Source: an uncultured Rhodospirillaceae bacterium (GTDB taxonomy: Bacteria > Pseudomonadota > Alphaproteobacteria > UBA9219). Taken from it: a DNA stretch of 64,000 nt. Below are positions 1,629 through 33,753 of the stretch, piece after piece. Every line of letters begins with the position of its first letter. Within the stretch, counting starts at the first letter, position 1. The notes below the pieces were generated by a model. That model worked only from the letters and a program-made list of their open reading frames with translations. It did not search any database and was not told the DNA's origin. The position numbers were made by a program, and so were the translations under genes. The DNA lies in contig CAZZDK010000002.1 in the NCBI GenBank assembly GCA_964652235.1, positions 38,675-102,674 on the forward strand. The letters run 5' to 3'.

Positions 1629-2825
1629 TTGAAGCAGGAATCCGGCCTCCTTAACGCGAGGTTTTCTTTGAATGGTCTGGCTCTATCTGCCGCCGGAGGC
1701 GATCACGCATGCCCAAAAGGGCGCGCGCTGTTCGGCCTCTCGCTCTGCGCGGGTGCGGGCGGGCTTGACCTCGGCCTCCACCTTGCGCTGCCAGACTATC
1801 GAACTGTTTGTTACGTTGAGCGGGAAAGCTACGCCGCATCCTCTCTCGTGGCGCGGATGGAAGACGAGGCCTTGGATCGCGCGCCTGTCTGGGACGATGT
1901 TAAAACCTTCCGAGGCAAAGCGTGGCGCGGCGCGGTGGATATCATCCATGGCGGTTATCCATGCCAGCCATTCTCGATTGCAGGCCGTCAACTTGGCGAC
2001 AAAGACCCGCGCCATCTCTGGCCGGATATCGCGCGGATCGTCCGCGAGATTAAACCGCCCATCTGCTTCTTTGAAAATGTCGGCGGACATTTACGACTGG
2101 GGTTCGAGCAAGTCCACGATGACCTTTGCCGCATGGGTTATCGCGTTAAGGCAGGGTTGTTTACGGCGGAGGAAGTCGGCGCGCCTCATAAACGTGAACG
2201 GTTGTTCATCTTGGCCTACCGTGAGGGTGTCTTCGGCGAACGGGGCCTCACGCAAAGAGATCTCGGCTGGGAACCCGAAGGGGCGGTTGGAAGTGAGCGC
2301 GCAGCTTTGGCTAACCCCGCGCGCGCAGGAGACGACCGAGAAGCAGGAGAGCTTCATAAGGCGCAACGGCGACCGGACGGATCGGTGCTTCGGGTCATTA
2401 ACGGCGCAGACGACGCGATGGCCGACGCCGCGCGCACAGGAGCCCGGAAGCACAAGCGTGGATCACGGCCTCAGCCTAACCGAGGCCAGCAAGGCATGGC
2501 CGACACCCCAATCGACGGATTACAGGGATCGGGGCAATCTCTCGAACCCATGCATCCAGCGGCGGATGGCCATGGGGAAGCAGGTCAACCTGTCCATGAT
2601 GGCGCATCCGATGGCGTACCAGTCTGGCCGCCAGCCCCAGCCAATCACAACGGATGGGAAGGAGTCCCAGCCAGTCTTAAACCCGCTGTTTGTCGAATGG
2701 CTGATGGGCTGGCCTATCGGGTGGACAGACTCCGTCTTTGCGGCAACGGCGTGGTGCCGTTGGTCGCGGCTTATGCGTTTTGCACTCTGGCAACTGAAGC
2801 CATCACAGAAAACGAAACAGAATGA
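1629..2825 (+). CDS. DNA (cytosine-5)-methyltransferase (Dcm family)
   Basis: Motif I LFGLSLCAGAGGLDLGL, catalytic PCQ motif GGYPCQPFSIAG, motif VI-like ENV (CFFENVGG); start codon uncertain (TTG at 1629 in ORF track). Confidence 0.8.
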   Translation: MKQESGLLNARFSLNGLALSAAGGDHACPKGRALFGLSLCAGAGGLDLGLHLALPDYRTVCYVERESYAASSLVARMEDEALDRAPVWDDVKTFRGKAWRGAVDIIHGGYPCQPFSIAGRQLGDKDPRHLWPDIARIVREIKPPICFFENVGGHLRLGFEQVHDDLCRMGYRVKAGLFTAEEVGAPHKRERLFILAYREGVFGERGLTQRDLGWEPEGAVGSERAALANPARAGDDREAGELHKAQRRPDGSVLRVINGADDAMADAARTGARKHKRGSRPQPNRGQQGMADTPIDGLQGSGQSLEPMHPAADGHGEAGQPVHDGASDGVPVWPPAPANHNGWEGVPASLKPAVCRMADGLAYRVDRLRLCGNGVVPLVAAYAFCTLATEAITENETE

Positions 2826-4051
2826 ACTCTTCAACGACGCATAGTCTTGCCAGCAAGATTGAGCTTTGGGATGTGGAAAGGCTTGTGCCTTATGCGAACA
2901 ATCCACGCACGCATTCGGAAACGCAGATTGCAAAGGTCGCGGCCAGCATCGCACGCTTCGGTTTTGTGAATCCCATCTTGGTGGACGCATCAGCCAATGT
3001 CATTGCAGGCCATGGGCGATTACAAGCGGCCAAGCAACTGGCTCTAAAGGAAGTGCCCGTCATTATCCTCGATCATTTGAACGAGGATGAGAAACGGGCT
3101 TACGTCATCGCCGACAATCAGTTGGCCCTTGAGGCCGGATGGGACGACGATCTGCTAAAAGCGGAACTGGGCGCGCTTGCGGAGGTAGATTTCGATTTAT
3201 CCGTCATCGGTTTTTCGGATAAAGAATTGGCAGAGCTTCTGGAAGGTCTGGAAGGCACAGAAGGCAACACGGACGATGATGCCGTGCCGGAAACGCCCAA
3301 CGATCCGAAAACAAAGCCCGGCGATATTTATGTCCTCGGCAATCACCGCTTGCTTTGCGGCGACAGCACGATTCTTGAAAACGTCGAGCGCGTCCTTGAC
3401 GGCGCGCTGGCCGATATGGTGTTCACGGATCCGCCCTACAACGTCGATTACGGCAATACTGCCAAGGACAAAATGCGCGGCAACAACCGCACGATTATGA
3501 ACGACAATCTTGGTGAAGGGTTTGAGGCGTTCCTTTACGATGCATGCGTCAATATGATCGCGGTCTGTAAAGGCGCGATCTATGTTTGCATGTCGTCCAG
3601 CGAATTGCACACGCTTCAAAAAGCCTTCATCGCAGCGGGCGGCAAATGGTCGACCTTCGTGATCTGGGCAAAGAACACTTTCACGTTGGGACGATCCGAC
3701 TACCAGCGTCAGTATGAGCCGATCCTCTACGGCTGGAAGCAAGGCACGGATCATTTCTGGTGCGGCGCGCGCGATCAAGGCGACGTGTGGTTCGTCAACA
3801 AGCCGACGAAGAACGATTTGCATCCGACCATGAAGCCCGTTGAACTTGTCGAACGCGCCGTCCGTAACAGCAGCAAGAGCCGTGACATCGTTCTGGATTG
3901 CTTCGGCGGCTCCGGCAGCACACTCATCGCTTGCGAGAAAACTGGCCGTCAAGCAAGGCTAATCGAATTGGATCCCAAATATTGCGACGTGATCGTTCAG
4001 CGATGGGAAGAGTTTACGGGCAAGAAGGCCGAGTTGGTCTCAGCGGATTAA
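2822..4051 (+). CDS. ParB-like nuclease domain fused to DNA N6-adenine/N4-cytosine methyltransferase (DPPY class)
   Basis: N-terminal ParB/Srx-like region (NPILVD...GHGR), catalytic DPPYNVDY motif, C-terminal FGGSGST motif; ATGA overlap with upstream MTase. Confidence 0.8.
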   Translation: MNSSTTHSLASKIELWDVERLVPYANNPRTHSETQIAKVAASIARFGFVNPILVDASANVIAGHGRLQAAKQLALKEVPVIILDHLNEDEKRAYVIADNQLALEAGWDDDLLKAELGALAEVDFDLSVIGFSDKELAELLEGLEGTEGNTDDDAVPETPNDPKTKPGDIYVLGNHRLLCGDSTILENVERVLDGALADMVFTDPPYNVDYGNTAKDKMRGNNRTIMNDNLGEGFEAFLYDACVNMIAVCKGAIYVCMSSSELHTLQKAFIAAGGKWSTFVIWAKNTFTLGRSDYQRQYEPILYGWKQGTDHFWCGARDQGDVWFVNKPTKNDLHPTMKPVELVERAVRNSSKSRDIVLDCFGGSGSTLIACEKTGRQARLIELDPKYCDVIVQRWEEFTGKKAELVSAD

Positions 4052-14592: not shown

Positions 14593-15531
14593 ATGGCCCG
14601 TGCCTATGGCGCGAACGCGCAGCTATTGGGTTCTTTTGAAACCATCTACGGAACCCCGCCCGCGAACGGCTTTATCAAATTTCCTTTTGTTTCCTCGCAG
14701 CTTGGTTCCGAGCAAGGGCTGATCGCCTCGGATTTGCTCGGCACAGGCCGCGATCCCGCGCAGCCCATGCGCGATGTGATTAATGTCGAGGGCGATGTCG
14801 TCGCGCCCGTCGATCTGCGTAACTTCGGCCATTGGCTCAAAGCCTTGCTTGGCACGCCGACGAGCAGCGGGACAGGCCCTCACGTCCACACCTATCATTC
14901 AGGCGTGACAAACCTGCCCAGCCTATCGCTTGAAATCGGCATGCCGGAAGCTGCCGCTTTCTTCATGAATATGGGTGTGCGCGTCAATTCTATGCAATTG
15001 ACCTTTGCCCGCTCCGGCGGTGCAAACGCGACGTTGAACTGTATCGCCCAAGGCGAAAGCCGTGCGGCAGCAAGCGCAGGCGGAACGCCGAGCGAGGCCA
15101 TCATCACGCGGTTCAATCAGTTTCAAGGCAGCGTGAAGAAGGATGGCGCGCAGCTCGGCAACGTCACGGGCGCGCAGCTGACCTACACCAACAACCTCGA
15201 AAAGATCGAAACGATCCGTTCGGACGGCAAGATCGATGGCGCGGATCCCACGATTGCCGCGCTGACAGGAACCATCGATGTGCGCTTTGCGGACACGGCG
15301 CTCATCGATGCTGCGACGAACAACACGCCTGTGGCGCTTGAGTTTGGCTACGTCATCGACGCCAGCCGTTCGCTTCTGTTCACGGCGCACCAAGTCTATC
15401 TGCCCAAACCCAAGCTCGCCATCTCCGGCCCCGGCGGCGTGCAGGCCAGCTTCAACTGGCAGGCCGCAAAGCCCGACGCAGGCCAGATGCTGACCGTCAC
15501 CCTGACTAATGATGTGGAGGATTACGCTTAA
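14593..15531 (+). CDS. Major tail (tube) protein
   Basis: ATG at 14593 with GGAGGA SD; 313 aa; immediately upstream of tail chaperone; ORF-track N-terminal extension from 14311 overlaps previous gene and is rejected. Confidence 0.5.
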   Translation: MARAYGANAQLLGSFETIYGTPPANGFIKFPFVSSQLGSEQGLIASDLLGTGRDPAQPMRDVINVEGDVVAPVDLRNFGHWLKALLGTPTSSGTGPHVHTYHSGVTNLPSLSLEIGMPEAAAFFMNMGVRVNSMQLTFARSGGANATLNCIAQGESRAAASAGGTPSEAIITRFNQFQGSVKKDGAQLGNVTGAQLTYTNNLEKIETIRSDGKIDGADPTIAALTGTIDVRFADTALIDAATNNTPVALEFGYVIDASRSLLFTAHQVYLPKPKLAISGPGGVQASFNWQAAKPDAGQMLTVTLTNDVEDYA

Positions 15532-15881
15532 TGATTAAACTCAATCTGAAACGCGAGGACTACTGGCTCGATCTCGGCTTTGGCGTGAGGGTCAATGTTG
15601 CGCCCTTAAGCACAGCGCTTGTCATGGCCGCCCGTTCGGCGGCTGCGGCGAAGATCCAGTCTACCGATGAGGCGGTCGGCGCGCGTGCGGCAGGGTTTCT
15701 GACCGAGCTGGCGCAAATAGCCTTTATCGCGTGGGAAGGCATTTGTGACGAGAACGGCGAACAGGCCGCCTTCACAGACGAAAATGTTCAGGCGCTTATG
15801 CAGCTCTGGCCCATCGCGGACGCTTTCGAGCGGCTCTATCTCACGCCATCGCTTCTTTTGGAGCAGGAAAAAAACGGTTAG
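15531..15881 (+). CDS. Tail assembly chaperone (gpG-like)
   Basis: 116 aa acidic protein between major tail and tape measure; ends with slippery A_AAA_AAC (15869-15875) followed by stop. Confidence 0.55.
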   Translation: MIKLNLKREDYWLDLGFGVRVNVAPLSTALVMAARSAAAAKIQSTDEAVGARAAGFLTELAQIAFIAWEGICDENGEQAAFTDENVQALMQLWPIADAFERLYLTPSLLLEQEKNG

Positions 15882-16230
15882 AGGCTCGCTGCAAATGGCA
15901 CTTTGGCGGCGGGCCTGATTATTGCGCTTCCTGCGCGGAGGCCAATCTTCCATGCAGCAAGGGGCTCCCCAACAAGGACGGGGAGCTATGCCCCTATTGC
16001 GCGAACGAGCCAAAAACAAACGAAGGATGGCAGGCATGGGACATCGCTCTGCGGTGCGCGGGGCAGCTTCGCATGACCAAGTTTGTCGTCATCGGCCTTG
16101 ACATGGGAGCGGCACTCAAGATCGGCGAAGCTCTTGGCTATGACCGAACGGGCTTAGCCGAGTTTCTTCCTTCCTGCGAGTCTGGCATGGTGTCAGCAAT
16201 CAACGCGAAAGTTAATGAGGGCTTAAAATG
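15531..16230 (+). CDS. Predicted -1 frameshift fusion product of the tail chaperone (gpGT-like), extension 15876-16230
   Basis: The -1 frame is open from the slippery heptamer to 16230 (about 116 extra codons) with no independent start; extension contains CxxC/CxxC pairs (DYCASC, LCPYC). Confidence 0.45.
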
Positions 16231-16251
16231 ATCCCTCACATCTTGGGATCA

Positions 16252-16995
16252 TCAGGCAATGTCAAGAATGAGGGCGCTATGATCCGAGAGGCCCGTTTCT
16301 CTTGGCGTGTGATCATAAGTGCATTTTGTCTCTTGAAACTTGTCCAAGAATTGCTTGTTTGCAAAAGCATGATCGATGCGAAAGCCGCTTTTTGATGAAC
16401 GCCAAGACCATTCCCGCGCGGTATCGCCATGTTCGTTGCGCCAAAGATCTGTGAGACGGCTCTTTCGGGTCAGATCCAAGAAAAGATCTTCGCAGGGAAA
16501 CTTTGTCGTCCCGTGCTCCTTATCCGTTGAACAGCAACCCGTATTCAAGTCGCCAAGGAGCAGGAAAGGTTTTCCTTGATGCTCTTTGGCCAGCTTGGCG
16601 CAGGCATGAAAAAACGGAACCTTTTTCTGGCCCAATGGAAAATAACAGGCGCACAGAGAAAAATGCGGAAAGTGGATAAAGCCCAGTTCCTTGGAACCAA
16701 AATCTGGCGATTGCACAGGATTGGCGCGGTGTTGATTGTTCTTTGAAGCAAAAAACACGCTGCTGGTTTTGCCTTTATCAAAGGCACAGAAGGGATGGAC
16801 GCAATATCCCAACCTTAAGAGGGCTACGATAAAATAGAATCCTGCTTCGCTGTATTTCCATTCCGACAGCACAATATGATCCGGCTCTTGTCTGCATAGC
16901 CATTCGACAATTTGGGGGGCTCTTTTGCCCCCACCCTGACAGACATTAAGCGAAACGATCCGTTCCACGAAATCACCACACATTCCAGAAGCCAC
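16252..16995 (-). CDS. Endonuclease/exonuclease/phosphatase (EEP) family protein, moron
   Basis: C-terminal LSDHSALILDI (EEP SDH motif), N-terminal SLNVCQGG; AT-rich relative to flanking tail genes; opposite strand. Confidence 0.55.
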   Translation of the reverse strand: MASGMCGDFVERIVSLNVCQGGGKRAPQIVEWLCRQEPDHIVLSEWKYSEAGFYFIVALLRLGYCVHPFCAFDKGKTSSVFFASKNNQHRANPVQSPDFGSKELGFIHFPHFSLCACYFPLGQKKVPFFHACAKLAKEHQGKPFLLLGDLNTGCCSTDKEHGTTKFPCEDLFLDLTRKSRLTDLWRNEHGDTAREWSWRSSKSGFRIDHAFANKQFLDKFQETKCTYDHTPRETGLSDHSALILDIA

Positions 16996-17030
16996 AAGGC
17001 TTCTTCCTTCTTGTTCGCAAGGAACTATAT

Positions 17031-19328
17031 ATGGTTGAGCGCAATCTTGCTATCCGCTTGTCCGTCATGGATGGCGGCAAGGTCAAGGCCGAACTCAAGG
17101 AAATTGGCGAGTCTGGCGAGAAATCGCTCAAAAAGATCGAGTTAGCCGGACAGCCCGCCTCCAAAGCCCTAAACGCCTTGAACGCCGTCGCCAATGACGT
17201 GAAAGGTGCGGCAGTCGGTCTTTCAAGCGGGATCGGGCCTCTCGGCTCCGCGTTGATGTCCATCGGCCCCGCTGGCCTTGCGGCGGCGGCAGGGATCGCG
17301 GCCATTGTGGGCATTGTGTCGGCGGGCACGCAGGCTCTTTTGGAAGAAGAAAAGGCAGCTAAGCGGCTTAATGCCGTGTTACAGGCCACGGGATACACGT
17401 CCGGTCTGACAGGCAATCAGATTGGTGATTTTGCCGAGGGTTTGGCAAAAGCAACAGGCGTTCAGGACGAAGCGATTACTTCTGCGGCGGCAACGCTGGC
17501 GGCCTATCGCTCTGTGTCAGGGGATGTCTTTACCGAAACCCTGAGACAAGCCGCCAATCTCAGCGCCGTGTTCGGCGGTGATCTAGACAGCAACGTGCAG
17601 GCTCTCGGCAAGGCGATGGAGATGCTGGCGGGCGGGCAAGCCGAAGGGTTGCGCAAGGCCTTCAAAGCCCTCAGCGGCCCGCAGGAAGATTTGATCAAAC
17701 GGCTGGCGGAGTCTGGGCGAGGCCTTGAAGCCCAGCAGGCGCTTCTTAAGGCTTTGGATAGTTCCTTGCACGATACCGCCGCCAATCTCGCCACGACTTC
17801 ATCCAAGATCGGCGTGGCTTGGGACGATTTGCTCAAGCATTTCGGGAATACAGGTCCGATCAACTGGGCCAAGAAGGAATTGTTAAGCCTTCTCGAAGGC
17901 ATGAACGATGCCCTGAAACCGGAAGATATTTCGGTCAAGCTCGCCGCGATGGTCAAGCAGCGCAATGCCATCCTCGCTTATGAGGAAAAGAACAAAGGAC
18001 GGTACGATTTTAACAGCGAGTTTCGCCGTCAGCAGCTTGAGAAGCTCAGCGCGGAAATCCCGATCCTTGAAAAAAAGGTCAGACTTGAAGACGAACTGCG
18101 CCAGAAGGCCACAGCCGCCGCCGCGCAGCAAGGGCGCGACGACGAGCTTCAACATGAGATCGCAAGCGAAGACAAACTGGTCGAACAGGCAAAGAAAGAG
18201 GAAGAAGCCAATCAAAAAATTGTCGATGATCTGAAACGCCAGTTACTCGGTCTTCGCAATGAACGACAGGCTTTTATCGAGCAAGCCCTTTCGCGCCTTT
18301 CCGACAACGCGGACGAAAGCAAAATCAGCCAGACCCGCGACATCGCCGGAAGGCTGTTCGATCAAAAGGCTTTTGCGGATGCGAAAAAGGTTCTTGATGA
18401 CCTTGCGCGCCAGATTGAAAAAACGACCGACAAGAAACAAGCCTTTGTCGATGAATATCTCGCAAAGCTTCCCAAGGGCATTTCCAAGGAGGTCATTGAC
18501 CGCACCAAGGAATGGGCCGCCGTCGCTTACGACCAGATCCAAGCGCGGGAAAAACTCGACAAGCTCAAAGAGGAAGGCAAACAGCTTACCGAGAGCGACA
18601 AAACAGCCACCGAAGGCTACGCCGATCAAGTCGCCAAGCTCAACGAGCTTCTGAACGCCGGAGCCATCAGCCAAAACATTTACAACCGCGCCAAAAGCAA
18701 AGCCGCCGAGCAGCTTTTGGCGGGGCGCACAGATCCACAGGCTGGAGCACTTCGGGCTTTTGCCTCCTATCAAAAGGAAGCCGAAAACACAGCGGGCGCG
18801 GTTGAAAAGGCTTTTGGCGAGGCCATGAAGGCAACCGAGGACGCGATTGTGAACATGGTCACGTCCGGCAAAATCAGCCTAAGCAGCTTAGGAGACTTTG
18901 CCGACAGCATTGTCGCCGACATCACGCGCATGTTTGTGCAGAAATCGATCACGGGGCCGCTCTTCAAAGCCCTGAGTGGCAGCATGGAAAGCGGCGGCTT
19001 CTTGGACAGCATCATGAGCGCCCTTTCTTTCCACGAGGGTGGCACGGTTGGCGAAACCTCGGCGCGGTTGATGGTTCCCTCTTATGTATTCGCAGGCGCG
19101 CCCCGTTACCACGGCGGCGGCATTGCGGGTCTGAAGCCCGACGAGGTTCCGGCTATCCTGCAACGCGGCGAGGAAGTCATTTCGAGAAAAGACAGAAAAA
19201 GCCGTTCCGCAGGCGTTAGTGTCGTCATGCACATCACAACCCCAGATGCGAACAGTTTTCGGGCCAGCCAAAGCCAGATCTCGGCGGAAGCGGCTCGTGG
19301 AATCAACAGGGCAAAGCGCAATTTATAG
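17031..19328 (+). CDS. Tail tape measure protein
   Basis: 765 aa, Ala/Gly-rich N-terminal TM-like region, long coiled-coil Glu/Lys/Gln-rich centre, position after G/GT. Confidence 0.7.
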   Translation: MVERNLAIRLSVMDGGKVKAELKEIGESGEKSLKKIELAGQPASKALNALNAVANDVKGAAVGLSSGIGPLGSALMSIGPAGLAAAAGIAAIVGIVSAGTQALLEEEKAAKRLNAVLQATGYTSGLTGNQIGDFAEGLAKATGVQDEAITSAAATLAAYRSVSGDVFTETLRQAANLSAVFGGDLDSNVQALGKAMEMLAGGQAEGLRKAFKALSGPQEDLIKRLAESGRGLEAQQALLKALDSSLHDTAANLATTSSKIGVAWDDLLKHFGNTGPINWAKKELLSLLEGMNDALKPEDISVKLAAMVKQRNAILAYEEKNKGRYDFNSEFRRQQLEKLSAEIPILEKKVRLEDELRQKATAAAAQQGRDDELQHEIASEDKLVEQAKKEEEANQKIVDDLKRQLLGLRNERQAFIEQALSRLSDNADESKISQTRDIAGRLFDQKAFADAKKVLDDLARQIEKTTDKKQAFVDEYLAKLPKGISKEVIDRTKEWAAVAYDQIQAREKLDKLKEEGKQLTESDKTATEGYADQVAKLNELLNAGAISQNIYNRAKSKAAEQLLAGRTDPQAGALRAFASYQKEAENTAGAVEKAFGEAMKATEDAIVNMVTSGKISLSSLGDFADSIVADITRMFVQKSITGPLFKALSGSMESGGFLDSIMSALSFHEGGTVGETSARLMVPSYVFAGAPRYHGGGIAGLKPDEVPAILQRGEEVISRKDRKSRSAGVSVVMHITTPDANSFRASQSQISAEAARGINRAKRNL

Positions 19329-19639
19329 GCCTGAACCCCGCACAAAAGCTTGTTTTCTGTTGACCAAAGAAGGGCTTACGTCCATTCTGTCCTTGCGGGC
19401 GGACGAAAGTCTATCCGCTGGGGTGTAGTTACCTCACGATGAACGGTATTTGCGTCACGTTACGGCGCTGCCAATCGGTCGTCTTCGTATGGCCGGGGGG
19501 CGGCGGCGGATTTTTGCGCAAGCAAAAGTCTGGATGTCCAAGCTTAGGCTAAAGGCCGTCGCAATCGTTTCATCGCGATTAACTAACCCCCGTGCCGCCC
19601 GATTTTCGGGCGGCGCCCACTCAAACAACGGGGAAACCG

Positions 19640-19804
19640 ATGAACAACATTAGCACCTTGCAACTCTGCGCTGACTTTTTGAAAGCCTATTTTGGCAATC
19701 CCACTATTCTGACACTTTTTGCTGTTCTCATTTTAGGTGTGGGCGTGAGCCTGCGCCTTAAGAAAATCGAGAAGACCATCCCGTCTATTCACAGAATTCG
19801 ATAA
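19640..19804 (+). CDS. Small membrane peptide (54 aa), moron
   Basis: ATG at 19640; one hydrophobic helix ILTLFAVLILGVGV; AT-rich. Confidence 0.3.
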   Translation: MNNISTLQLCADFLKAYFGNPTILTLFAVLILGVGVSLRLKKIEKTIPSIHRIR

Positions 19805-19827
19805 CCCAAATCGAGGCTAAGAAATTC

Positions 19828-20043
19828 ATGCGCATCAATCTGTTAGATCCAGCGTTTTCTGACTCTTATCAACGCCTGTCATTAGCACTTGCGGACACTA
19901 TACGAGCAAAAGGCTCATGCTGCCGTGAAGACATGGCGAACAACGGGTTCTCTGGCGATGAGATTCGCTCTTGCTGGAACATTGCATACGGGCTTGCTCA
20001 CGTCGAATTGATGGACAGCCGGAACGATGTCGTTCTGCATTGA
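19828..20043 (+). CDS. Small hypothetical protein (71 aa), moron
   Basis: ORF only. Confidence 0.25.
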   Translation: MRINLLDPAFSDSYQRLSLALADTIRAKGSCCREDMANNGFSGDEIRSCWNIAYGLAHVELMDSRNDVVLH

Positions 20044-20176
20044 ATTTCATGGATAAAAGAAGGTCTAACGACGATCTTGCCTTCATGGCTTAGCATGCGG
20101 TTAAATGGCGTAACGATAACAAAAAGGGCGGGCCGCCCCTTCGCGGCCATGCTTTCCTTTTACGAGAGAGTTCGAT

Positions 20177-20587
20177 ATGTCCTTGATCCATTGGAACAGC
20201 GAAATGAGTGTTGGGATTCCGTCTATCGACGCCCAGCATCAAAAACTTGTAGAGATGCTCAACAAGCTTCACGGCGCGACCTATCAGGGCAAAGGGCATG
20301 AAGTTGTCGGCGATACGTTGACGGGCTTAATGAACTACACGATTGAGCATTTTGCTTATGAAGAAAAACTCTTTCAGGAAACAAGCTATCCGGACGCTGA
20401 GGCTCATGCAGCTGAACATGCCACCTTAACCCGCAAAGTGATGGACATCCACGAAAAGTTCAAAAGCGGCGTGACAACAGCCTTGACGCAGGAAGTCCTT
20501 CTCTTCCTTGTCAACTGGGTCATGGATCACACGATGGACAGCGACAAAAAATACAGCGCGCATTTGATCGCTGCTGGGGTTCGATAA
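20177..20587 (+). CDS. Bacteriohemerythrin (HHE cation-binding domain)
   Basis: N-terminus IHWNSEMSVGIPSIDAQHQKL and H-x(n)-H-E / H...D iron ligands typical of hemerythrin. Confidence 0.7.
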   Translation: MSLIHWNSEMSVGIPSIDAQHQKLVEMLNKLHGATYQGKGHEVVGDTLTGLMNYTIEHFAYEEKLFQETSYPDAEAHAAEHATLTRKVMDIHEKFKSGVTTALTQEVLLFLVNWVMDHTMDSDKKYSAHLIAAGVR

Positions 20588-20609
20588 CCCCCAAGCCCAA
20601 GGATAAAAT

Positions 20610-29182: not shown

Positions 29183-29986
29183 CTATAATGATGCCAATTC
29201 AACAGAGAACTCCTTTGAAGCGCTACAGAAACGCCCCATAAGGCTTCTAAATCTTTCCAAACCATCCGTTGCATAAAAGGTGCTCTGACCCGCGTCTTTA
29301 GAAGTACTAATTAGCTTTTTATCAAGAAGCGCTTTTCTTGCGGTAATGGCAGTCATTTGCGCACTATCGACAAGGGAAACACCTATCGGCATTCTTTTCT
29401 GAATGTTTTTCGATAAAATTGGAAAGTGAGTGCATCCTAAAACCAACGTGTCATAGTCCTCTGTTTTAATTGAATTCAGGTATCGTTGTATTGCCGCGTC
29501 AGCAGCTTCTGTTTCATCCCACCCTTCTTCCGCTAGAGAAACGAGGACATTGCACCCCATGCCCTCGACATGCGCCGTCGGGAGAATTTCTTTAAGTGCA
29601 ACTTCATAGGCTTTGGAACGAATGGTGCCTTCTGTCGCCCAGACAACGATGCGCTTATTTCGGCTTTTCGCCGCTGCCGCCTGCGCACCCGGAGAAATGA
29701 CGCCGACACAAGGTAGGTCAGGCCAATAACGACGTATCGCTTTGAGGCCATGCGCAGTTGCAGTATTACAGGCCACCACAAGCATCTTAACATTTTTTTG
29801 CACGAGCATGTCTGCAATTTCTAGGCAGTACCGCTCAACGGTTTGGGGGGGCTTAGTGCCATACGGAACACGCGCCGTATCACCGACGTATATATAATTT
29901 TCACAAGGCATTAGATCGCGCATAGCGCTATAAACTGTCAAACCGCCAACACCAGAGTCAAAAACACCGATAGCTGCTTGTCCCAT
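29183..29986 (-). CDS. murI: Glutamate racemase
   Basis: N-terminal IGVFDSGVGGLTVY signature and CNTA catalytic Cys region; AT-rich gene. Confidence 0.75.
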   Translation of the reverse strand: MGQAAIGVFDSGVGGLTVYSAMRDLMPCENYIYVGDTARVPYGTKPPQTVERYCLEIADMLVQKNVKMLVVACNTATAHGLKAIRRYWPDLPCVGVISPGAQAAAAKSRNKRIVVWATEGTIRSKAYEVALKEILPTAHVEGMGCNVLVSLAEEGWDETEAADAAIQRYLNSIKTEDYDTLVLGCTHFPILSKNIQKRMPIGVSLVDSAQMTAITARKALLDKKLISTSKDAGQSTFYATDGLERFRSLMGRFCSASKEFSVELASL

Positions 29987-30049
29987 GTTATAGTTTCCTT
30001 GTGTAAAACCTTTGTTTTCAAAAGCCTATGTTTTTTGCTCTTAGCATCT

Positions 30050-30853
30050 TTATTGTATCGGAGATAAAGCATATCCATACTTTGCTTGGCTTGTTCTTCC
30101 GTTGTTTTTCATCCTACTTAGAGTGTATTCATGGAGCTGGTTTCCGATGTCAAAATGCCAAAACTCATTCCGATAATTTGTAAACCCAACTGCGGTCATT
30201 ACACTGTGTAATGTGCGACGGTTTACAAGGCGTGGATCATGAATACAAATCTCACGCGCAGCAAGTCGCTCCTCGAAGAATGCCGTGTGGCTAACAACTG
30301 ACATCTCATCAAAATGCGCGCCCATATTTAGTAAACGAGATGTTTTTTTATCTCTCAGAAGAACATCAACCGATCCACCTGTAATATGTGTCGGCCACGT
30401 GGCCGGATTTTCTGGGCTAAAAGAGTCCGGGTCCGATACATACTGGACGACTTCACGATACACTTGTTCGTTCCGAGCAAAAGGATTCTCTTGCCGTACC
30501 CTAGCCCAGAAAAAATCCCAAATCCCTTTCTGACACGTCAATGGCCTGTATCCATCGACAACAAACAATTCGATTCCGATTGAGGCCAAAACATAATCAA
30601 CCACGGCTAACCGCTCCGCAGCCTCTTTTCTAACCCATACGGAGGGCAGCGCTCCAGATATTGGCTTAAAGTACGGGGCATTTTCTCCATCTGTTCGGGC
30701 ATAGTAATTTTCGCTGGCAATGCCATAGGCCCCAACATCTACTAATGACTCAGAGAATTGCGGGTGGTTCAAATCTACAGACACCGTTCTATAATTTCCT
30801 GTGTCTTCACTATTTTCATAAATTGGAACCGCGCTTGAAATAAAGCCGTTCAT
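30050..30853 (-). CDS. D-alanyl-D-alanine dipeptidase, VanX/DdpX-like (peptidase M15D)
   Basis: VVDGYRPLTCQKGIWDFFW, zinc-ligand-like H/D segment THITGGSVDVLL, and EFWHFDIG resembling the VanX EWWH catalytic Glu/His motif. Confidence 0.6.
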   Translation of the reverse strand: MNGFISSAVPIYENSEDTGNYRTVSVDLNHPQFSESLVDVGAYGIASENYYARTDGENAPYFKPISGALPSVWVRKEAAERLAVVDYVLASIGIELFVVDGYRPLTCQKGIWDFFWARVRQENPFARNEQVYREVVQYVSDPDSFSPENPATWPTHITGGSVDVLLRDKKTSRLLNMGAHFDEMSVVSHTAFFEERLAAREICIHDPRLVNRRTLHSVMTAVGFTNYRNEFWHFDIGNQLHEYTLSRMKNNGRTSQAKYGYALSPIQ

Positions 30854-30873
30854 GTTATTCCTTTCTTGGATCG

Positions 30874-31542
30874 TTACAAATCTCTTCTAAAAACTTGCCT
30901 AATTTTATCCGTCAGATCTCTCATCGGGGCATGATTTTTAGAAAGGCTTGACCAGTTAATTTCAATCAAATTCCCAGAGAAAGAACGATCCACTTCATCA
31001 ATCGATGCCCAGTGATTTTCCCAATTCCAAGATAAGTGGCTGCTCGGATGATGACAGCGGAGACTCTTGATCTTGCCGTCCTGATAGCGAACCCCATTAA
31101 ATAGAATTAAGTGCCCCCCTTTCCCAATTGTCCTGCCGTCCTCATCCTTCTCTCCACCACGCAAGCCGACAGCGACAGAAACAATGCAAACGTTTCCATG
31201 ACTTATAATTTTAGCAATTGTATCTGCGCCAACATTCCGATGGCATTGGCCAGAAACGCCATATTTTGACAAGAGACGAAGCAACCCAGCGTGTATCCAG
31301 CCCTTATCGCAATAAGCCTTCTCTGCAAGACCTTCATTGAGAAGCTCCCACGTTGTTTTTCCGAAACTCTCTTGTTGCAGTTCCTTCACGCCGGACACAA
31401 GCATCTTTACACAAGCAATGCCGCAGGCACGGGGGGACCAATGTCTTGCTTCCTCTTCTGTTGGGCCGCGCTCTGAATCAACCTCAATGATCTGAGAGAA
31501 GAACGGAATCCCCTCAACTACATCTTCTTTACTATTCTGCAT
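30874..31542 (-). CDS. Papain-like/C39-like cysteine peptidase-fold protein
   Basis: Candidate catalytic Cys in SPRACGIACVKML and His in GGHLILFNG as in Peptidase_C39_2/BtrH-like folds; assignment tentative. Confidence 0.35.
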   Translation of the reverse strand: MQNSKEDVVEGIPFFSQIIEVDSERGPTEEEARHWSPRACGIACVKMLVSGVKELQQESFGKTTWELLNEGLAEKAYCDKGWIHAGLLRLLSKYGVSGQCHRNVGADTIAKIISHGNVCIVSVAVGLRGGEKDEDGRTIGKGGHLILFNGVRYQDGKIKSLRCHHPSSHLSWNWENHWASIDEVDRSFSGNLIEINWSSLSKNHAPMRDLTDKIRQVFRRDL

Positions 31543-32499
31543 TTATCCCCCGAGTTTTGCTGTGTGTAAGAGCCAATTAACAACGTGACTTTGTTCATAA
31601 CCGATGCTTTTGGCAGAAGGAACGGAAATGCCATAGTTCCTTCCAAGGCTCGGATATGAGTTAGCCTCAAGAAAATATAAGCCCTTCTCCGTTTGAAGAA
31701 AATCCACTCTTAAAAGCCCATTAAATCGAAGCATTTCGTATGCGGCTCGTGAAAAAGCCTCCAATGCGGTTTGTTCTTTGGGCGAAACGTTTGCTGGTAC
31801 CTCCATCTCAACAGAATGGGACGTTCTTTTTGCTTCTTCATCAAAAATCGCAAACCCATTCTGGAGTGTAATTGAAACTGGAGGCAGAACCGTTACCGCA
31901 ACGCCATCATTCTGCCGAATAATTGGAACGGAGATTTCAACGCCTTTAAGATATGGTTCAACCATAAAAGAACCGTATGTTTTTATAAGTTTGCTTGCCG
32001 ATGCTTCGGCTTCGGCCTCCTCACGAACAAACACAACATCCTGGCCGCCGCCGCCATTCGTTGGTTTGATGATATATCCGTCCTTGTGCTTTCGGCGCAT
32101 AAACGTCCACAAATCAGCAACGCTAGAACAAAGCGTATCAGGTATTGTCAAAATGCCCGATCCGGTCAGCATTTTCTTTGTCAGCATTTTATTTGCGGTC
32201 ATATATGATGAGAACTTACGCGGCCCTGAATAAGGAACGCCAAGCGTTTCAAGAGAATCTCGTAAATCAAACTCTCTGTCTGTTCCCCTGTAATAGGGAT
32301 CTAACAAAAGGGCTTTCCCAGCGTTATGCCGCAGGCGCCCCCAGTTATGGGGAGGAATTGCATATGCCGGAATAATCTCATTCGGTTGATTTTGTATTGT
32401 GAGACATTCAGAAACTTGTTGCGAGACCTCTTCAAGATCTTCTCTCTCAGTTTCTGATCCTGCGTAAATTATATATACTTTGCTCATAATTTTCCTCAC
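31543..32499 (-). CDS. D-alanine--D-alanine ligase family ATP-grasp enzyme (paralog 2)
   Basis: ATP-grasp motifs YIIKPTNGGGGQDVVFV, EPYLKGVEISVPII, RVDFLQTEKGLYFLEANSYP; Ddl-like N-terminus IIYAGSETERE. Confidence 0.6.
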   Translation of the reverse strand: MRKIMSKVYIIYAGSETEREDLEEVSQQVSECLTIQNQPNEIIPAYAIPPHNWGRLRHNAGKALLLDPYYRGTDREFDLRDSLETLGVPYSGPRKFSSYMTANKMLTKKMLTGSGILTIPDTLCSSVADLWTFMRRKHKDGYIIKPTNGGGGQDVVFVREEAEAEASASKLIKTYGSFMVEPYLKGVEISVPIIRQNDGVAVTVLPPVSITLQNGFAIFDEEAKRTSHSVEMEVPANVSPKEQTALEAFSRAAYEMLRFNGLLRVDFLQTEKGLYFLEANSYPSLGRNYGISVPSAKSIGYEQSHVVNWLLHTAKLGG

Positions 32500-33428
32500 A
32501 TGGGCAAGCGGATTTTCTTTAAAAGAAAGGCAACTAGTTCGTCGTAAGTACGCCCTGAAGCCTTCCAGATAGAGGCTAGGTTCCCTGCCTCAGAAAGACC
32601 GGGAACAGTATTTGCTTCAAGCAAATATGCTTGACCCTGCGCGTCAACAAGATAATCGAATCTAACGACTGCGTCACACCCCATAGCTCCATACATTTTA
32701 GCTGATGCCTCACGGACAGATTTTTCAGAATCAGCTGAAATCTCAGACGGCAGGATGTACCGACGTTTATTTTCATTATGTTTGATTTCGTAATCGTATA
32801 GAGCCCCGTCAAAACGCACCTCTAAGAGAGGAAGCGTTATATCGATCTCGGGTTCGCCCGTTATCGCACAGGTGACAAACGAACCATCGATAAACTCTTC
32901 GACGATATATGGTTCATATTTTCTATCACGACTATCAATTTTGTCTTCCAGTTCCTTCAAACTCGATACAATTTCGACCCCACGGCTTCCGCCTCCATAA
33001 ATAGGTTTAAGAATATACTTTTTGTTTTCTTCTGCAGAAAGGACGGGGAGATTCATGTGCGCCTTCGTTGCTTCGAGACGATTAAGAACCCCCGGCGTTA
33101 GAACATTTAATGAGTGCGCCAAGGCTTTAAAACGCAACTTGTCAAACCCAACAATATGAGCATAAGGACGGGAGAAGTTATAGGGAATACCATTTACTTC
33201 ACAAAATGAAGAAAGGGCACCATCCTCTCCATTTTTTCCATGCATGCTGTTAAAAACGACAGATTGCGGCGACGCCTTCAAATCGTGGTCTTTTAAAGGA
33301 AATTCAATCAATCGATTAGGAACCCCGCGTCTGTCTAGCGAGCGAGCGACTGTTGCTGCGGAAATGATAGACCCCTCACGTTCCCAGCTCTCTCCTCCAA
33401 AAACTACAAGTACTGTGCTATTCATCAT
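32496..33428 (-). CDS. ddl: D-alanine--D-alanine ligase family enzyme (paralog 1)
   Basis: VLVVFGGESWEREGSIISA, HGKNGEDGALSSFCEVNGIPY, RFDYLVDAQGQAYLLEANTVPGLSEAG - classic Ddl signatures; ATGA overlap with paralog 2. Confidence 0.75.
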   Translation of the reverse strand: MMNSTVLVVFGGESWEREGSIISAATVARSLDRRGVPNRLIEFPLKDHDLKASPQSVVFNSMHGKNGEDGALSSFCEVNGIPYNFSRPYAHIVGFDKLRFKALAHSLNVLTPGVLNRLEATKAHMNLPVLSAEENKKYILKPIYGGGSRGVEIVSSLKELEDKIDSRDRKYEPYIVEEFIDGSFVTCAITGEPEIDITLPLLEVRFDGALYDYEIKHNENKRRYILPSEISADSEKSVREASAKMYGAMGCDAVVRFDYLVDAQGQAYLLEANTVPGLSEAGNLASIWKASGRTYDELVAFLLKKIRLPM

Positions 33429-33531
33429 CTGTCTTCTCCTTTTTAGATATAGTTCACCCGTTCACTAATCTCGTGTTTCGAGAAAAGCGTTTTAGAAAAT
33501 TCTTAAATGCCCTATTGCCTTCAGAAGGCTA

Positions 33532-33738
33532 TTAAGGGCTTCGCTGAAGACAAAGCCTATTGTAACCGCCTTTTTTGTTTATTTCTTCAGCCTCCTGCCT
33601 CGTGAGAGGGGCTGGATCTGTGCAACAATAAATGCTCGGCGGGCAAATTGCTCCGCAGGCGATGCAATCCCCTTCAACCACAGCAACAATGTTTTGTACT
33701 GAACGCTTGATGTCTTCATTTTTATCTATTTTCGTCAT
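33532..33738 (-). CDS. Cys-rich small protein (68 aa)
   Basis: Motif EGDCIACGAICPPSIYCC (CxxCxxxCP...CC); between MurF-like and Ddl genes in the operon. Confidence 0.3.
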   Translation of the reverse strand: MTKIDKNEDIKRSVQNIVAVVEGDCIACGAICPPSIYCCTDPAPLTRQEAEEINKKGGYNRLCLQRSP

Positions 33739-33753
33739 TTTTCCTCCTTAAAA

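What the first reader, a model, noticed from the sequence alone, without database searches (positions are those of the whole stretch)
16252..16995. Antisense AT-rich EEP-family (endonuclease/exonuclease/phosphatase) moron inserted between tail chaperone and tape measure genes
This gene is on the opposite strand to the whole structural operon. It carries the EEP C-terminal SDH motif and has lower GC than its neighbours.

It splits the otherwise invariant GT-H junction. Insertions at this point of a tail module are uncommon. The product could be a nuclease or phosphodiesterase used in lysogenic conversion or against competing nucleic acids.
Basis: partly seen in the sequence, partly recalled or inferred. 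Interest (0 to 1): 0.5.

Follow-up and report, generated by a model that had tools for sequence, protein, structure and literature searches.

The report
Antisense nuclease moron in prophage tail
An 800-base accessory cassette with one gene for a small, apparently active DNA-cutting enzyme sits backwards between two tail genes of a prophage, at a junction where related prophages often carry toxin-antitoxin or anti-phage genes, so it is an ordinary kind of phage add-on with an uncharacterised cargo.

Summary
ORF 16252-16995 (-) is real and has a complete EEP catalytic set. Its GC is 0.48, against 0.56-0.60 for the flanking phage genes. It lies exactly between the stop codon of the frameshifted tail chaperone (16231) and the start of the tape measure gene (17031).

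Only 2 of about 150 related loci carry this gene, both at the same position. dN/dS is 0.10-0.18, so it is a selected accessory gene and not a structural one.

The junction is not "otherwise invariant". 24 of 131 distinct related junctions hold other inserts at the same nucleotide position. About 20 of these are antisense, and their cargo includes CcdAB, MazF, PIN/Phd, TacAT, GmrSD, AbiJ-like, NERD and NucS-like genes. The far side of the tape measure gene is a second such slot, and here it carries a hemerythrin cassette.

The protein belongs to a rare clade of minimal AP-endonuclease/LINE-1-endonuclease-like enzymes. It is not canonical ExoIII and matches no PADLOC defence model. Most of the relatives sampled lie next to mobile-element, TA or defence genes, and two are fused to T5orf172 nuclease domains.

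Most likely it is a DNA nuclease expressed in the lysogen that serves in conflict with incoming DNA. The role is inferred, not shown. Interest is moderate.

The parts
14596..15531 (+). Tail tube gene. It was used as the anchor to collect related loci.
   Evidence: Pfam Phage_tube_2, E 6e-57. 160 related loci were retrieved with it.
15531..15881 (+). Tail assembly chaperone, G part.
   Evidence: phrog_313 'tail assembly chaperone', E 5e-10.
15869..15875 (+). Slippery heptamer A_AAA_AAC for the -1 frameshift that gives the G-T fusion.
   Evidence: Read directly from the sequence. The -1 frame is open from here to 16231. Its translation is conserved at 57-81% identity in relatives and lies in the -1 frame relative to G.
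15872..16231 (+). T part of the chaperone, in the -1 frame, with a DUF7697 C-terminus. Its stop codon is at 16229-16231.
   Evidence: Pfam DUF7697, E 2e-16. tblastn matches in relatives.
16232..17030 (.). The inserted cassette, 799 nt. In empty-site relatives T's stop and the TMP start overlap as TAATG.
   Evidence: Boundary comparison with 12 empty-site loci and with the two EEP-bearing loci. GC dips to 0.47-0.49.
16227..16253 (-). Hairpin with a 9-bp stem followed by UUUU. It spans the two convergent stop codons and is a weak candidate terminator for the EEP transcript.
   Evidence: RNA fold gives -13 kcal/mol with z -1.8. It is not significant on its own and was not picked up by the terminator scan.
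16252..16995 (-). EEP-family nuclease gene. The ORF is 247 aa from the GTG at 16995, and the probable start is the ATG at 16983 (243 aa).
16987..17004 (.). Seven-bp hairpin over the 5' end of the EEP gene. The stem is kept in L001 and L002 while the loop differs. Its role is unknown.
   Evidence: The 61-nt minus-strand region folds at -22.9 kcal/mol with z -3.9.
17019..17024 (+). AAGGAA ribosome-binding site for the tape measure gene. It is supplied by the right end of the cassette and replaces the translational coupling seen at empty sites.
   Evidence: Read from the sequence. It is conserved in all three EEP-bearing loci and absent at empty sites.
17031..19328 (+). Tape measure protein gene.
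   Evidence: Pfam Tape_meas_lam_C, E 9e-21, plus a TMP_2 match that is below its cut-off.
19329..20609 (+). Second low-GC cassette, between the tape measure gene and the DUF2460 distal tail gene. It holds two small ORFs and bacteriohemerythrin (20177-20587), all on the sense strand.
   Evidence: NCBIfam bact_hemeryth, E 9e-42. GC is 0.46-0.49. The same cassette occurs in L022, L097 and L098, and is absent from L002.

Best explanation
This is a single-gene moron: an accessory cassette carried by a temperate siphovirus integrated in an alphaproteobacterial chromosome.

**Shown**
- A 799-nt segment of foreign composition lies exactly between the stop codon of the frameshifted tail chaperone and the start codon of the tape measure gene.
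- The cassette brings a new ribosome-binding site for the tape measure gene.
- It encodes, on the opposite strand, a 243-247-aa protein with the EEP fold and a complete Mg2+-dependent phosphodiesterase active site. The protein belongs to the AP-endonuclease / LINE-1-endonuclease branch.
- The gene is under purifying selection.
- It is present in only a few related phages.
- The site is a recurrent cargo slot, dominated by antisense toxin-antitoxin and anti-phage genes.

**Inferred**
- The enzyme cuts DNA.
- It is transcribed from its own promoter while the late operon is silent, that is, in the lysogen.
- Convergent late transcription reduces its expression during the carrier phage's own lytic growth.
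- Its benefit is in genetic conflict. It could restrict or exclude incoming phage or plasmid DNA, perhaps DNA with abasic, uracil-containing or otherwise unusual sites. Alternatively it could act as an abortive-infection or addiction nuclease.
For: **Anatomy.** The ORF, its strand and its GC are established. The insert boundaries are exact when compared with empty sites.

**Enzyme.**
- The Pfam EEP hit is above its cut-off.
- N17, E45, D149, N151, D208, D238 and H239 are invariant, and Y118 nearly so.
- The family profile matches LINE-1 EN at E 8e-24, Neisseria and E. coli ExoIII at 1e-21 to 1e-17, and APE1 at 1e-14.
- The AF2 model has pLDDT 92.8. Foldseek superposes it on APE1, NApe, NExo, Mth0212 and ExoIII at TM 0.72-0.78.

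**Accessory status.** No EEP gene occurs in the 160 loci retrieved by their tube gene. The only two close homologues, at 86% and 82% identity, sit in the same slot and orientation. dN/dS is 0.10-0.18 with dS 0.39-0.67.

**The slot.** 24 of 131 distinct junctions carry inserts, about 20 of them antisense. The cargo includes CcdB/CcdA, PemK/MazF, PIN+Phd, GNAT+TacA, GmrSD_N, AbiJ_NTD4, NERD and NucS_C.

**Family context.**
- A homologue in Dokdonella immobilis lies next to HsdR, AbiEi/AbiEii and Nmad genes.
- Other homologues lie near a TIR protein, TacAT/HipA, integrases or transposases.
- Two relatives are fused to T5orf172/MUG113 nuclease domains.
Against: - No activity, expression or phenotype has been measured.
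- No PADLOC defence model matches the protein, even at E <= 1.
- No sigma-70-like promoter was found upstream of the gene, and the candidate terminator is weak.
- Two family members, P0011 and P0079, lie in neighbourhoods with no mobile-element or defence hallmark.
- The slot also holds cargo unrelated to defence: an ars operon, a HAD hydrolase and a Sel1 protein.
- A stand-alone constitutive nuclease with no visible partner needs some form of self/non-self discrimination, and none is identified here.
Confidence: 0.5

Rival explanations
1. Lysogenic conversion for DNA repair. The enzyme would be an extra AP endonuclease or 3'-phosphodiesterase that helps the lysogen survive oxidative or alkylation damage, possibly alongside the hemerythrin cassette.
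For: - The closest solved structures are repair enzymes: APE1, ExoIII, and Neisseria NApe and NExo.
- The active site is complete.
- A bacteriohemerythrin cassette sits 2.3 kb away in the same prophage.
- Some family members lie among housekeeping genes.
Against: - It scores far below the ExoIII equivalog cut-offs: 44.9 against 99 bits, and 35.6 against 183 bits.
- The clade is rare, with 440 clusters at E <= 1e-10 among 1.84 billion representatives.
- Most contexts sampled carry mobile-element, TA or defence genes.
- The EEP and hemerythrin cassettes assort independently.
Confidence: 0.17
2. A phage-benefit function during lytic growth or entry, such as degrading host DNA, countering a host defence, or processing DNA.
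For: - Phages commonly carry nucleases.
- There is a weak partial match to phrog_19169 'endonuclease'.
- The gene is under purifying selection.
Against: - The gene is antisense inside the late operon, so late transcription opposes it.
- It is absent from about 98% of related phages.
- tblastn finds no homologue in 50,697 GenBank phage records.
- Relatives occur in chromosomal islands, not in phage replication modules.
Confidence: 0.1
3. A phosphodiesterase or phosphatase that acts on something other than DNA, such as a lipid, an inositol phosphate, RNA or a nucleotide second messenger. The EEP fold includes all of these activities.
For: The EEP superfamily is functionally broad, and the Pfam hit is only just above its cut-off.
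Against: - Every strong profile and structure match is to DNA endonucleases or exonucleases of the APE/ExoIII/L1-EN branch.
- There is no signal peptide; strand beta-1 begins at residue 11.
- The fusion partners found in relatives are nuclease domains.
Confidence: 0.08
4. A free-standing homing-endonuclease-like selfish gene. It would cut the empty chaperone/tape-measure junction of related phages and spread by recombinational repair.
For: - It is inserted precisely between two conserved genes.
- Its distribution is sporadic.
- It occurs on at least two different tape measure alleles: TMP N-terminus 88% identical in L001 and 55% in L002.
- It is most similar in sequence to a target-nicking endonuclease, LINE-1 EN.
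Against: - The same site holds many unrelated cargos that are not homing endonucleases, so recurrent use is a property of the site.
- It is antisense to the genes that are expressed during co-infection.
- Relatives are scattered over unrelated chromosomal sites.
- No EEP-fold homing endonuclease is known to me (own knowledge).
Confidence: 0.05

Closest known systems
Phage morons in late/tail operons (the HK97 gp15 concept; JBD26 Tab; the P-FimU gene between the tail tube and tail assembly chaperone genes of F10-like Pseudomonas phages)
   Same: - It is an extra gene, present in some phages and absent from close relatives at a precise intergenic point of the morphogenetic operon.
- Its composition is foreign.
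- The known examples act from the prophage to protect the lysogen (PMC10884400; PMC12952977).
   Different: - The cargo is an EEP-fold nuclease, not a small membrane, pilin-like or assembly-blocking protein.
- The position is the chaperone/tape-measure junction.
- The gene is antisense to the operon.
- No expression or phenotype data exist.
Prophage and satellite hot spots of antiviral systems (the P2/P4 hot spots of Rousset et al., cited in PMC11364771; preprint listed)
   Same: It is a fixed position between conserved phage genes where unrelated defence and TA cargos replace one another among relatives.
   Different: - It occurs in a different phage lineage: uncultured alpha- and betaproteobacterial prophages with lambda-like heads and RcGTA-like distal tails.
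- It lies inside the tail operon, on both sides of the tape measure gene.
- The cargo has a strong antisense bias.
- About four fifths of the sites are empty.
Exodeoxyribonuclease III / APE1 family AP endonucleases
   Same: - It has the same fold and the same catalytic residues.
- The xth model aligns end to end.
- Foldseek gives TM 0.72-0.78.
   Different: - It scores far below the equivalog cut-offs.
- It is shorter, at 243 aa against 268 for E. coli ExoIII.
- It has a family-specific N-x3-GGG-x-R motif after strand beta-1.
- It belongs to a rare clade that is mobile-element-associated in most, though not all, sampled contexts.
LINE-1 ORF2p endonuclease domain
   Same: It is the best sequence-profile match among solved structures, at E 8e-24. 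The alignment is collinear over the whole length and the sizes are nearly the same, 238 aa for the LINE-1 domain.
   Different: - It has no reverse transcriptase partner.
- It is bacterial or phage in origin.
- Identity is only about 20%.
- Target preference is unknown.
EEP domain of ArmC in the ARMADA II defence system
   Same: It is the only EEP domain I found reported in an anti-phage system (PMC12458937; PMC13463889).
   Different: That domain is predicted to be inactive and is embedded in a large YprA-family helicase. This protein stands alone and has an intact active site.

Membership tests
EEP superfamily (Pfam PF03372 Exo_endo_phos) | HMM score at or above the gathering threshold | tested here: met
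   The score is 26.4 bits against a cut-off of 24.5, which is marginal. A profile of 50 homologues matches EEP structures at E down to 8e-24.
EEP superfamily (Pfam PF03372 Exo_endo_phos) | Catalytic residues N, E, D-x-N, D and D-H (equivalent to APE1 N68, E96, D210, N212, D283, D308, H309) | tested here: met
   N17, E45, D149, N151, D208, D238 and H239 are invariant in 50 homologues, and Y118 is nearly invariant. They align with the LINE-1 EN motifs.
EEP superfamily (Pfam PF03372 Exo_endo_phos) | Four-layer alpha/beta sandwich fold | tested here: met
   The AF2 model has pLDDT 92.8 and pTM 0.91. Foldseek against APE1 and ExoIII gives E about 1e-14 and TM 0.72-0.78.
Exodeoxyribonuclease III (NCBIfam TIGR00633 / TIGR00195 equivalogs) | Score above the curated equivalog cut-off | tested here: not met
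   The scores are 44.9 against 99.05 bits and 35.6 against 182.55 bits.
Exodeoxyribonuclease III (NCBIfam TIGR00633 / TIGR00195 equivalogs) | AP-site incision and 3'-5' exonuclease activity | not testable with these tools
   This needs a biochemical assay.
Moron (accessory gene added to a phage operon) | Present in some phage genomes and precisely absent from close relatives | tested here: met
   107 of 131 distinct related junctions are empty. The closest relatives show TAATG at the stop/start overlap.
Moron (accessory gene added to a phage operon) | Nucleotide composition differs from the surrounding genes | tested here: met
   GC is 0.48 and GC3 is 0.51, against 0.56-0.60 and 0.65-0.72.
Moron (accessory gene added to a phage operon) | Own promoter and terminator | tested here: inconclusive
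   The scan found no sigma-70 consensus promoter upstream. Downstream there is a 9-bp hairpin followed by U4, with z -1.8.
Moron (accessory gene added to a phage operon) | Expressed from the repressed prophage | not testable with these tools
   This needs strand-specific RNA-seq of a lysogen.
Known anti-phage defence systems (PADLOC-DB v2.0.0) | Match to a model of a known or candidate defence protein | tested here: not met
   No family matches at E <= 1.
Free-standing homing endonuclease | Intergenic insertion between conserved phage genes, with sporadic distribution | tested here: met
Free-standing homing endonuclease | Cleaves the cognate empty site and is over-inherited in crosses | not testable with these tools
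   This needs an enzyme assay and phage crosses. The same site also holds unrelated cargos that are not nucleases, which argues against this reading.
Type II toxin-antitoxin module | An adjacent cognate antitoxin gene | tested here: not met
   The 799-nt cassette holds only the EEP ORF. No neighbour is conserved across the family contexts examined.

The most novel reading that the evidence does not exclude
The stand-alone, catalytically intact EEP nuclease, resembling LINE-1 EN and APE, would be a new single-gene anti-phage or plasmid-exclusion system. It would be carried in a defence hot spot, not described to my knowledge, that flanks the tape measure gene of a widespread lineage of uncultured prophages. 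The antisense orientation inside the late operon would serve as a built-in switch, turning the nuclease off when the carrier phage itself goes lytic.
Probability: 0.3. Interest if true: 0.6.

Novelty: new member of a known kind. Interest (0 to 1): 0.4.

Why it matters
If the role is confirmed, an EEP-fold enzyme would join the list of nuclease folds used in prophage-encoded immunity. In the literature I could search, this fold appears only as an inactivated domain in ARMADA II.

The two slots flanking the tape measure gene could serve as a 'guilt by location' resource for finding new defence and TA genes in uncultured Alpha- and Betaproteobacteria. Several cargos there have no Pfam match at all.

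The strong antisense bias of the cargo suggests a simple, testable rule for how prophages keep harmful cargo silent during their own lytic cycle.

If the role is not confirmed, this is an ordinary moron of unknown benefit.

Tried and rejected
- **GenBank phages.** tblastn of the protein against 50,697 phage records found nothing.
- **PADLOC.** The EEP protein, the hemerythrin and the two small ORFs gave no hits.
- **PDB with the single sequence.** Only a weak LINE-1 EN hit appeared, at E 0.024. A family profile was needed to get clear matches.
- **Promoter and terminator scan.** It was uninformative for the EEP gene.
- **Viral structure library (BFVD).** It returned only generic EEP proteins, nearly all from giant viruses plus a few phage proteins at TM about 0.6, and no close phage analogue.
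- **Shared end sequences.** I looked for inverted or direct repeats or att-like motifs across the 24 different inserts and found none. Only loci with the same cargo share ends, so a site-specific integration mechanism is rejected.
- **Structural-protein reading.** Rejected, because the gene is absent from about 98% of relatives and is antisense.
- **Gene transfer agent reading.** Rejected. The region has a gpA-type large terminase, a lambda-type portal, an S49 protease, a 765-aa tape measure protein and a ParB-methylase. It spans more than 28 kb and lies next to host genes.
- **Pseudogene or decaying passenger.** Rejected on dN/dS of 0.10-0.18.
- **'Longest ORF' as a strand call.** This mis-assigned the strand in several high-GC inserts. 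I corrected those using the strands of the Pfam-supported genes.
- **Literature.** Searches for EEP in anti-phage defence found only the inactive ArmC domain.
Full report
**1. What is there**

The window carries a prophage next to host genes.
- The phage genes include a gpA-type large terminase, a lambda-type portal, an S49 protease, a capsid gene, a tail tube gene, a tape measure gene, the RcGTA-like distal tail genes DUF2460 and DUF2163, and an Rcc01698-like protein.
- From about 29 kb onward the genes are bacterial housekeeping genes: a Mur ligase, ClpB and lysyl-tRNA synthetase.
- All structural genes are on the plus strand.

The tail chaperone has the usual two-part form.
- The G ORF (15531-15881) ends just after a canonical A_AAA_AAC slippery heptamer at 15869-15875.
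- The -1 frame is open from there to 16231 and ends in a DUF7697 domain.
- The translated -1 extension is conserved at 57-81% identity in relatives, in the -1 frame relative to G.

The tape measure gene starts at 17031. Between the two genes lies a minus-strand ORF, 16252-16995.

**2.

- The ORF is 247 aa from a GTG. An ATG at 16983 gives 243 aa and is the start shared with the two closest homologues.
- GC is 0.48 and GC3 is 0.51. The neighbouring phage genes have 0.56-0.60 and 0.65-0.72.
- Pfam Exo_endo_phos is just above its threshold, at 26.4 against 24.5 bits. The NCBIfam xth model aligns over residues 12-246.
- In an alignment of 50 homologues, N17, E45, D149, N151, D208, D238 and H239 are invariant and Y118 nearly so. 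This is the full EEP catalytic set.

**3. What kind of EEP enzyme**

- The single sequence barely matches any solved structure.
- The family profile matches LINE-1 endonuclease at E 8e-24, Neisseria and E. coli ExoIII-type enzymes at 1e-21 to 1e-17, and APE1 at about 1e-14.
- An AlphaFold2 model built on the alignment is confident, with pLDDT 92.8. It superposes on APE1, NApe, NExo, Mth0212 and ExoIII at TM 0.72-0.78.
- It is not canonical ExoIII. It scores 44.9 bits against a cut-off of 99, and 35.6 against 183.
- It is a minimal-size member, and it has a family-specific N-x3-GGG-x-R motif.
- An exhaustive search of 1.84 billion cluster representatives gives only 918 hits at E <= 1e-3, 440 at E <= 1e-10 and 32 at E <= 1e-30. 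This is a rare clade.
- Most members have a single domain of 228-250 aa. Two longer relatives carry a C-terminal T5orf172/MUG113 nuclease domain.
- There is no signal peptide, because strand beta-1 begins at residue 11.
- A DNA phosphodiesterase is the best-supported activity. This is an inference from homology.

**4. It is an accessory insert, delimited to the nucleotide**

I used the tail tube protein to collect 80 loci from species-representative genomes and 80 from IMG/VR.
- The genome loci are mostly MAGs of Alphaproteobacteria, Rhodospirillales and Micavibrio-like lineages, and of Burkholderiales.
- None of these 160 loci has an EEP gene.

The only close homologues known are P0001 (86% identity) and P0002 (82%).
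- Both sit on metagenome contigs in the same slot and in the same antisense orientation.
- Their tape measure N-termini are 88% and 55% identical to the window's. The cassette therefore occurs on different backbones.

In the closest relatives with an empty site the junction reads ...GGC TTA AAG TAATG GCT GAA..., so the chaperone stop overlaps the tape measure start. In the window, 799 nt (16232-17030) are intercalated exactly there. The right end of the insert supplies an AAGGAA ribosome-binding site for the tape measure gene, and this site is conserved in all three EEP-bearing loci.

Among the three copies dN/dS is 0.10-0.18 at dS 0.39-0.67. The gene has been kept under purifying selection for a long time.

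It is clearly not met.

**5. The junction is a cargo slot, not an invariant joint**

- Of 146 loci with both flanking genes, 121 have 3-61 nt between them and 25 have inserts of 495-1935 nt.
- After removing duplicates, that is 107 empty and 24 occupied out of 131. In the closest clade it is 12 occupied out of 48.
- All inserts lie between the stop and start codons. Different cargos share no end sequences. Recurrent use therefore most likely reflects tolerated illegitimate insertions, spread afterwards by homologous recombination through the conserved flanks. This is inference.

Pfam identifies the following cargo:

| Cargo | Loci |
|---|---|
| CcdB + CcdA | L061, L067, L070, L162 |
| PemK/MazF-type toxins | L055, L057, L068 |
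| PIN + Phd/YefM | L049 |
| GNAT toxin + TacA | L077, L143, L146 |
| GmrSD-type enzyme | L105 |
| AbiJ-like protein | L017 |
| NERD protein | L099 |
| NucS-like endonuclease | L023 |
| ABC-F / AAA_21 ATPase | L011 |
| Sel1 protein | L037 |
| HAD hydrolase | L092 |

L047 carries an apparent ars operon, which I named by eye from its translations and did not scan. Several cargo proteins have no Pfam match.

Going by the strands of the Pfam-supported genes, or by the only long ORF in the low-GC inserts, about 20 of the 24 inserts are antisense to the late operon. The sense-strand exceptions are the ABC-F, NucS-like, ars and HAD cargos.

Several source genomes hold more than one related prophage. 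One 239-kb contig holds three. Both recombination between relatives and competition among them are therefore plausible.

**6. Context of the wider EEP family**

| Family member | Neighbourhood |
|---|---|
| P0004 | Integrase |
| P0010 | TIR-domain protein and an integrase fragment |
| P0015 | Between TacAT and HipA modules, near ParE |
| P0031 (Dokdonella immobilis) | Beside DUF429, a type I HsdR, AbiEi/AbiEii and Nmad genes, with an integrase downstream |
| P0032 | Island with a transposase and a WYL protein |
| P0059 | Next to a transposase gene |
| P0029 | Next to a transposase gene |
| P0011 | No mobile-element or defence hallmark |
| P0079 | No mobile-element or defence hallmark |

No neighbouring gene is conserved across these contexts, so the EEP gene works alone. 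The association with conflict loci is suggestive but not universal.

**7. How it most likely works**

Shown:
- The anatomy of the insert.
- The intact active site and the fold.
- The gene's accessory status.
- Purifying selection.
- The nature of the slot.

Inferred:
1. The enzyme cleaves DNA.
2. It has its own promoter. None matched the sigma-70 consensus. The only AT-rich stretch is the TATATA/TATAGT that overlaps the tape measure start codon.
3. It is made in the lysogen, when the late operon is off.
4. Convergent late transcription lowers its expression during induction. This would explain the antisense bias of harmful cargo in the slot.
5. It benefits the lysogen or the prophage in conflict with incoming DNA.

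How a partner-less nuclease would spare the host genome is unknown. Possibilities include specificity for lesions or for unusual bases. ExoIII-family enzymes can incise at abasic sites, and Mth0212 incises at uracil. That point is from my own knowledge and was not tested here.

Two hairpins were noted.
- The first (16227-16253) spans the two convergent stop codons. It has z -1.8.
- The second (16987-17004) lies over the 5' end of the EEP gene. It sits within a 61-nt fold with z -3.9, and its stem is kept in L001 and L002.
- Their roles are open.

**8. Rivals**

- *DNA repair as lysogenic conversion.* This is supported by the structural neighbours and by the nearby hemerythrin. Against it are the sub-threshold ExoIII scores, the rarity of the clade and the independent assortment of the two cassettes.
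- *A lytic-cycle or anti-defence function.* This is opposed by the orientation, the gene's rarity among relatives, and its absence from GenBank phages.
- *A substrate other than DNA.* This is opposed by every strong match.
- *A homing-endonuclease-like selfish gene.* This fits the placement, but not the mixed cargo at the same site, nor the scattered chromosomal relatives.

**9. Comparison with what is known**

- Morons inside morphogenetic operons that protect lysogens are well established. Examples are Tab in JBD26 and P-FimU, which lies between the tube and chaperone genes of F10-like phages. HK97 gp15 is cited in those papers.
- Fixed defence hot spots in prophages and satellites are also known. 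They are mentioned in the text of the Tai paper and its references, and the Rousset et al. preprint is listed.
- I did not find this specific slot described, nor a stand-alone active EEP nuclease as a defence gene. Searches returned only a predicted inactive EEP domain within ARMADA II ArmC.
- PADLOC has no model that matches the protein.

I therefore file this as a new member of a known kind: a moron or hot-spot cargo. Its cargo family is uncharacterised.

**10. Verdict**

Its claim that the junction is rarely used is wrong for this lineage. That error points to the more interesting result, namely that both flanks of the tape measure gene are cargo slots rich in TA and defence genes. Interest is moderate at 0.4. 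It would rise if the nuclease were shown to restrict phages.

Noticed in passing
window 19329-20609: A second low-GC cassette (GC 0.46-0.49) lies between the tape measure gene and the DUF2460 distal-tail gene. It holds two small ORFs (19592-19804, with a likely transmembrane helix, and 19828-20043) and a bacteriohemerythrin (20177-20587), all on the sense strand. The slot is occupied in 15 of 31 distinct relatives. Cargos I named by eye from the translations, without a Pfam scan, include a methyl-accepting chemotaxis-like protein, XRE-type regulators, a GNAT and membrane proteins. The hemerythrin cassette recurs in L022, L097 and L098, independently of the EEP cassette.
   Followed up: partly
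window 15890-16010 (+, -1 frame): The frameshifted T part of the tail chaperone contains a cysteine-rich stretch (C-x10-CxxC ... CxxC) that resembles a zinc ribbon. It precedes the DUF7697 domain and is conserved in relatives.
   Followed up: no
window 16975-17035 (-): The minus-strand RNA around the EEP start folds unusually well (-22.9 kcal/mol, z -3.9). It pairs the EEP ATG region with the complement of the tape measure start and encloses the Shine-Dalgarno-like GAAGGAAG. This could be translational repression of a harmful gene, or it could be chance.
   Followed up: partly
L008, L013, L015, L018 (one MAG); L012, L016, L031 (one MAG); L040, L058, L062 (one 239-kb contig): Several source genomes carry three or four related prophages of this lineage. 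One contig carries three. This gives opportunity for cargo exchange by recombination and for competition between prophages.
   Followed up: no
L047 1434-3369: In one relative the chaperone/tape-measure slot carries what looks like an arsenic-resistance operon (ArsR-like regulator, ACR3-like permease, ArsC-like phosphatase) on the sense strand. I named these by eye from the translations and did not scan them. The slot is therefore not limited to defence or TA genes.
   Followed up: no
P0148, P0181 (relatives of the EEP protein): These two longer family members have a C-terminal T5orf172/MUG113 (GIY-YIG-like) domain fused to the EEP domain. Other long members (P0157, P0184, P0185) have extensions with no Pfam match.
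   Followed up: partly
window 2822-4051 (+) and 56677-57924 (+): The prophage encodes a ParB-N-terminal/N6_N4 DNA methyltransferase fusion. The host region encodes a D12-class adenine methyltransferase directly after clpB. Either enzyme could mark self DNA. No link to the EEP nuclease was tested.
   Followed up: no
window 29183-35226 (-): The host-side block next to the prophage end encodes an Asp/Glu racemase, an M15 D-Ala-D-Ala dipeptidase and a Mur-ligase-family protein. The Mur ligase gene has GC 0.46, against about 0.59 for clpB and lysS. This may be another acquired island.
   Followed up: no
L010/L090 5018-5869, L009 8636-9298, L022 4188-4583, L096 8602-9177, L070 8618-9226: Several cargo proteins in the chaperone/tape-measure slot have no Pfam match: 283, 220, 131, 191 and 202 aa. 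They are antisense, and most are low-GC. They are candidate unknown defence or exclusion genes.
   Followed up: no
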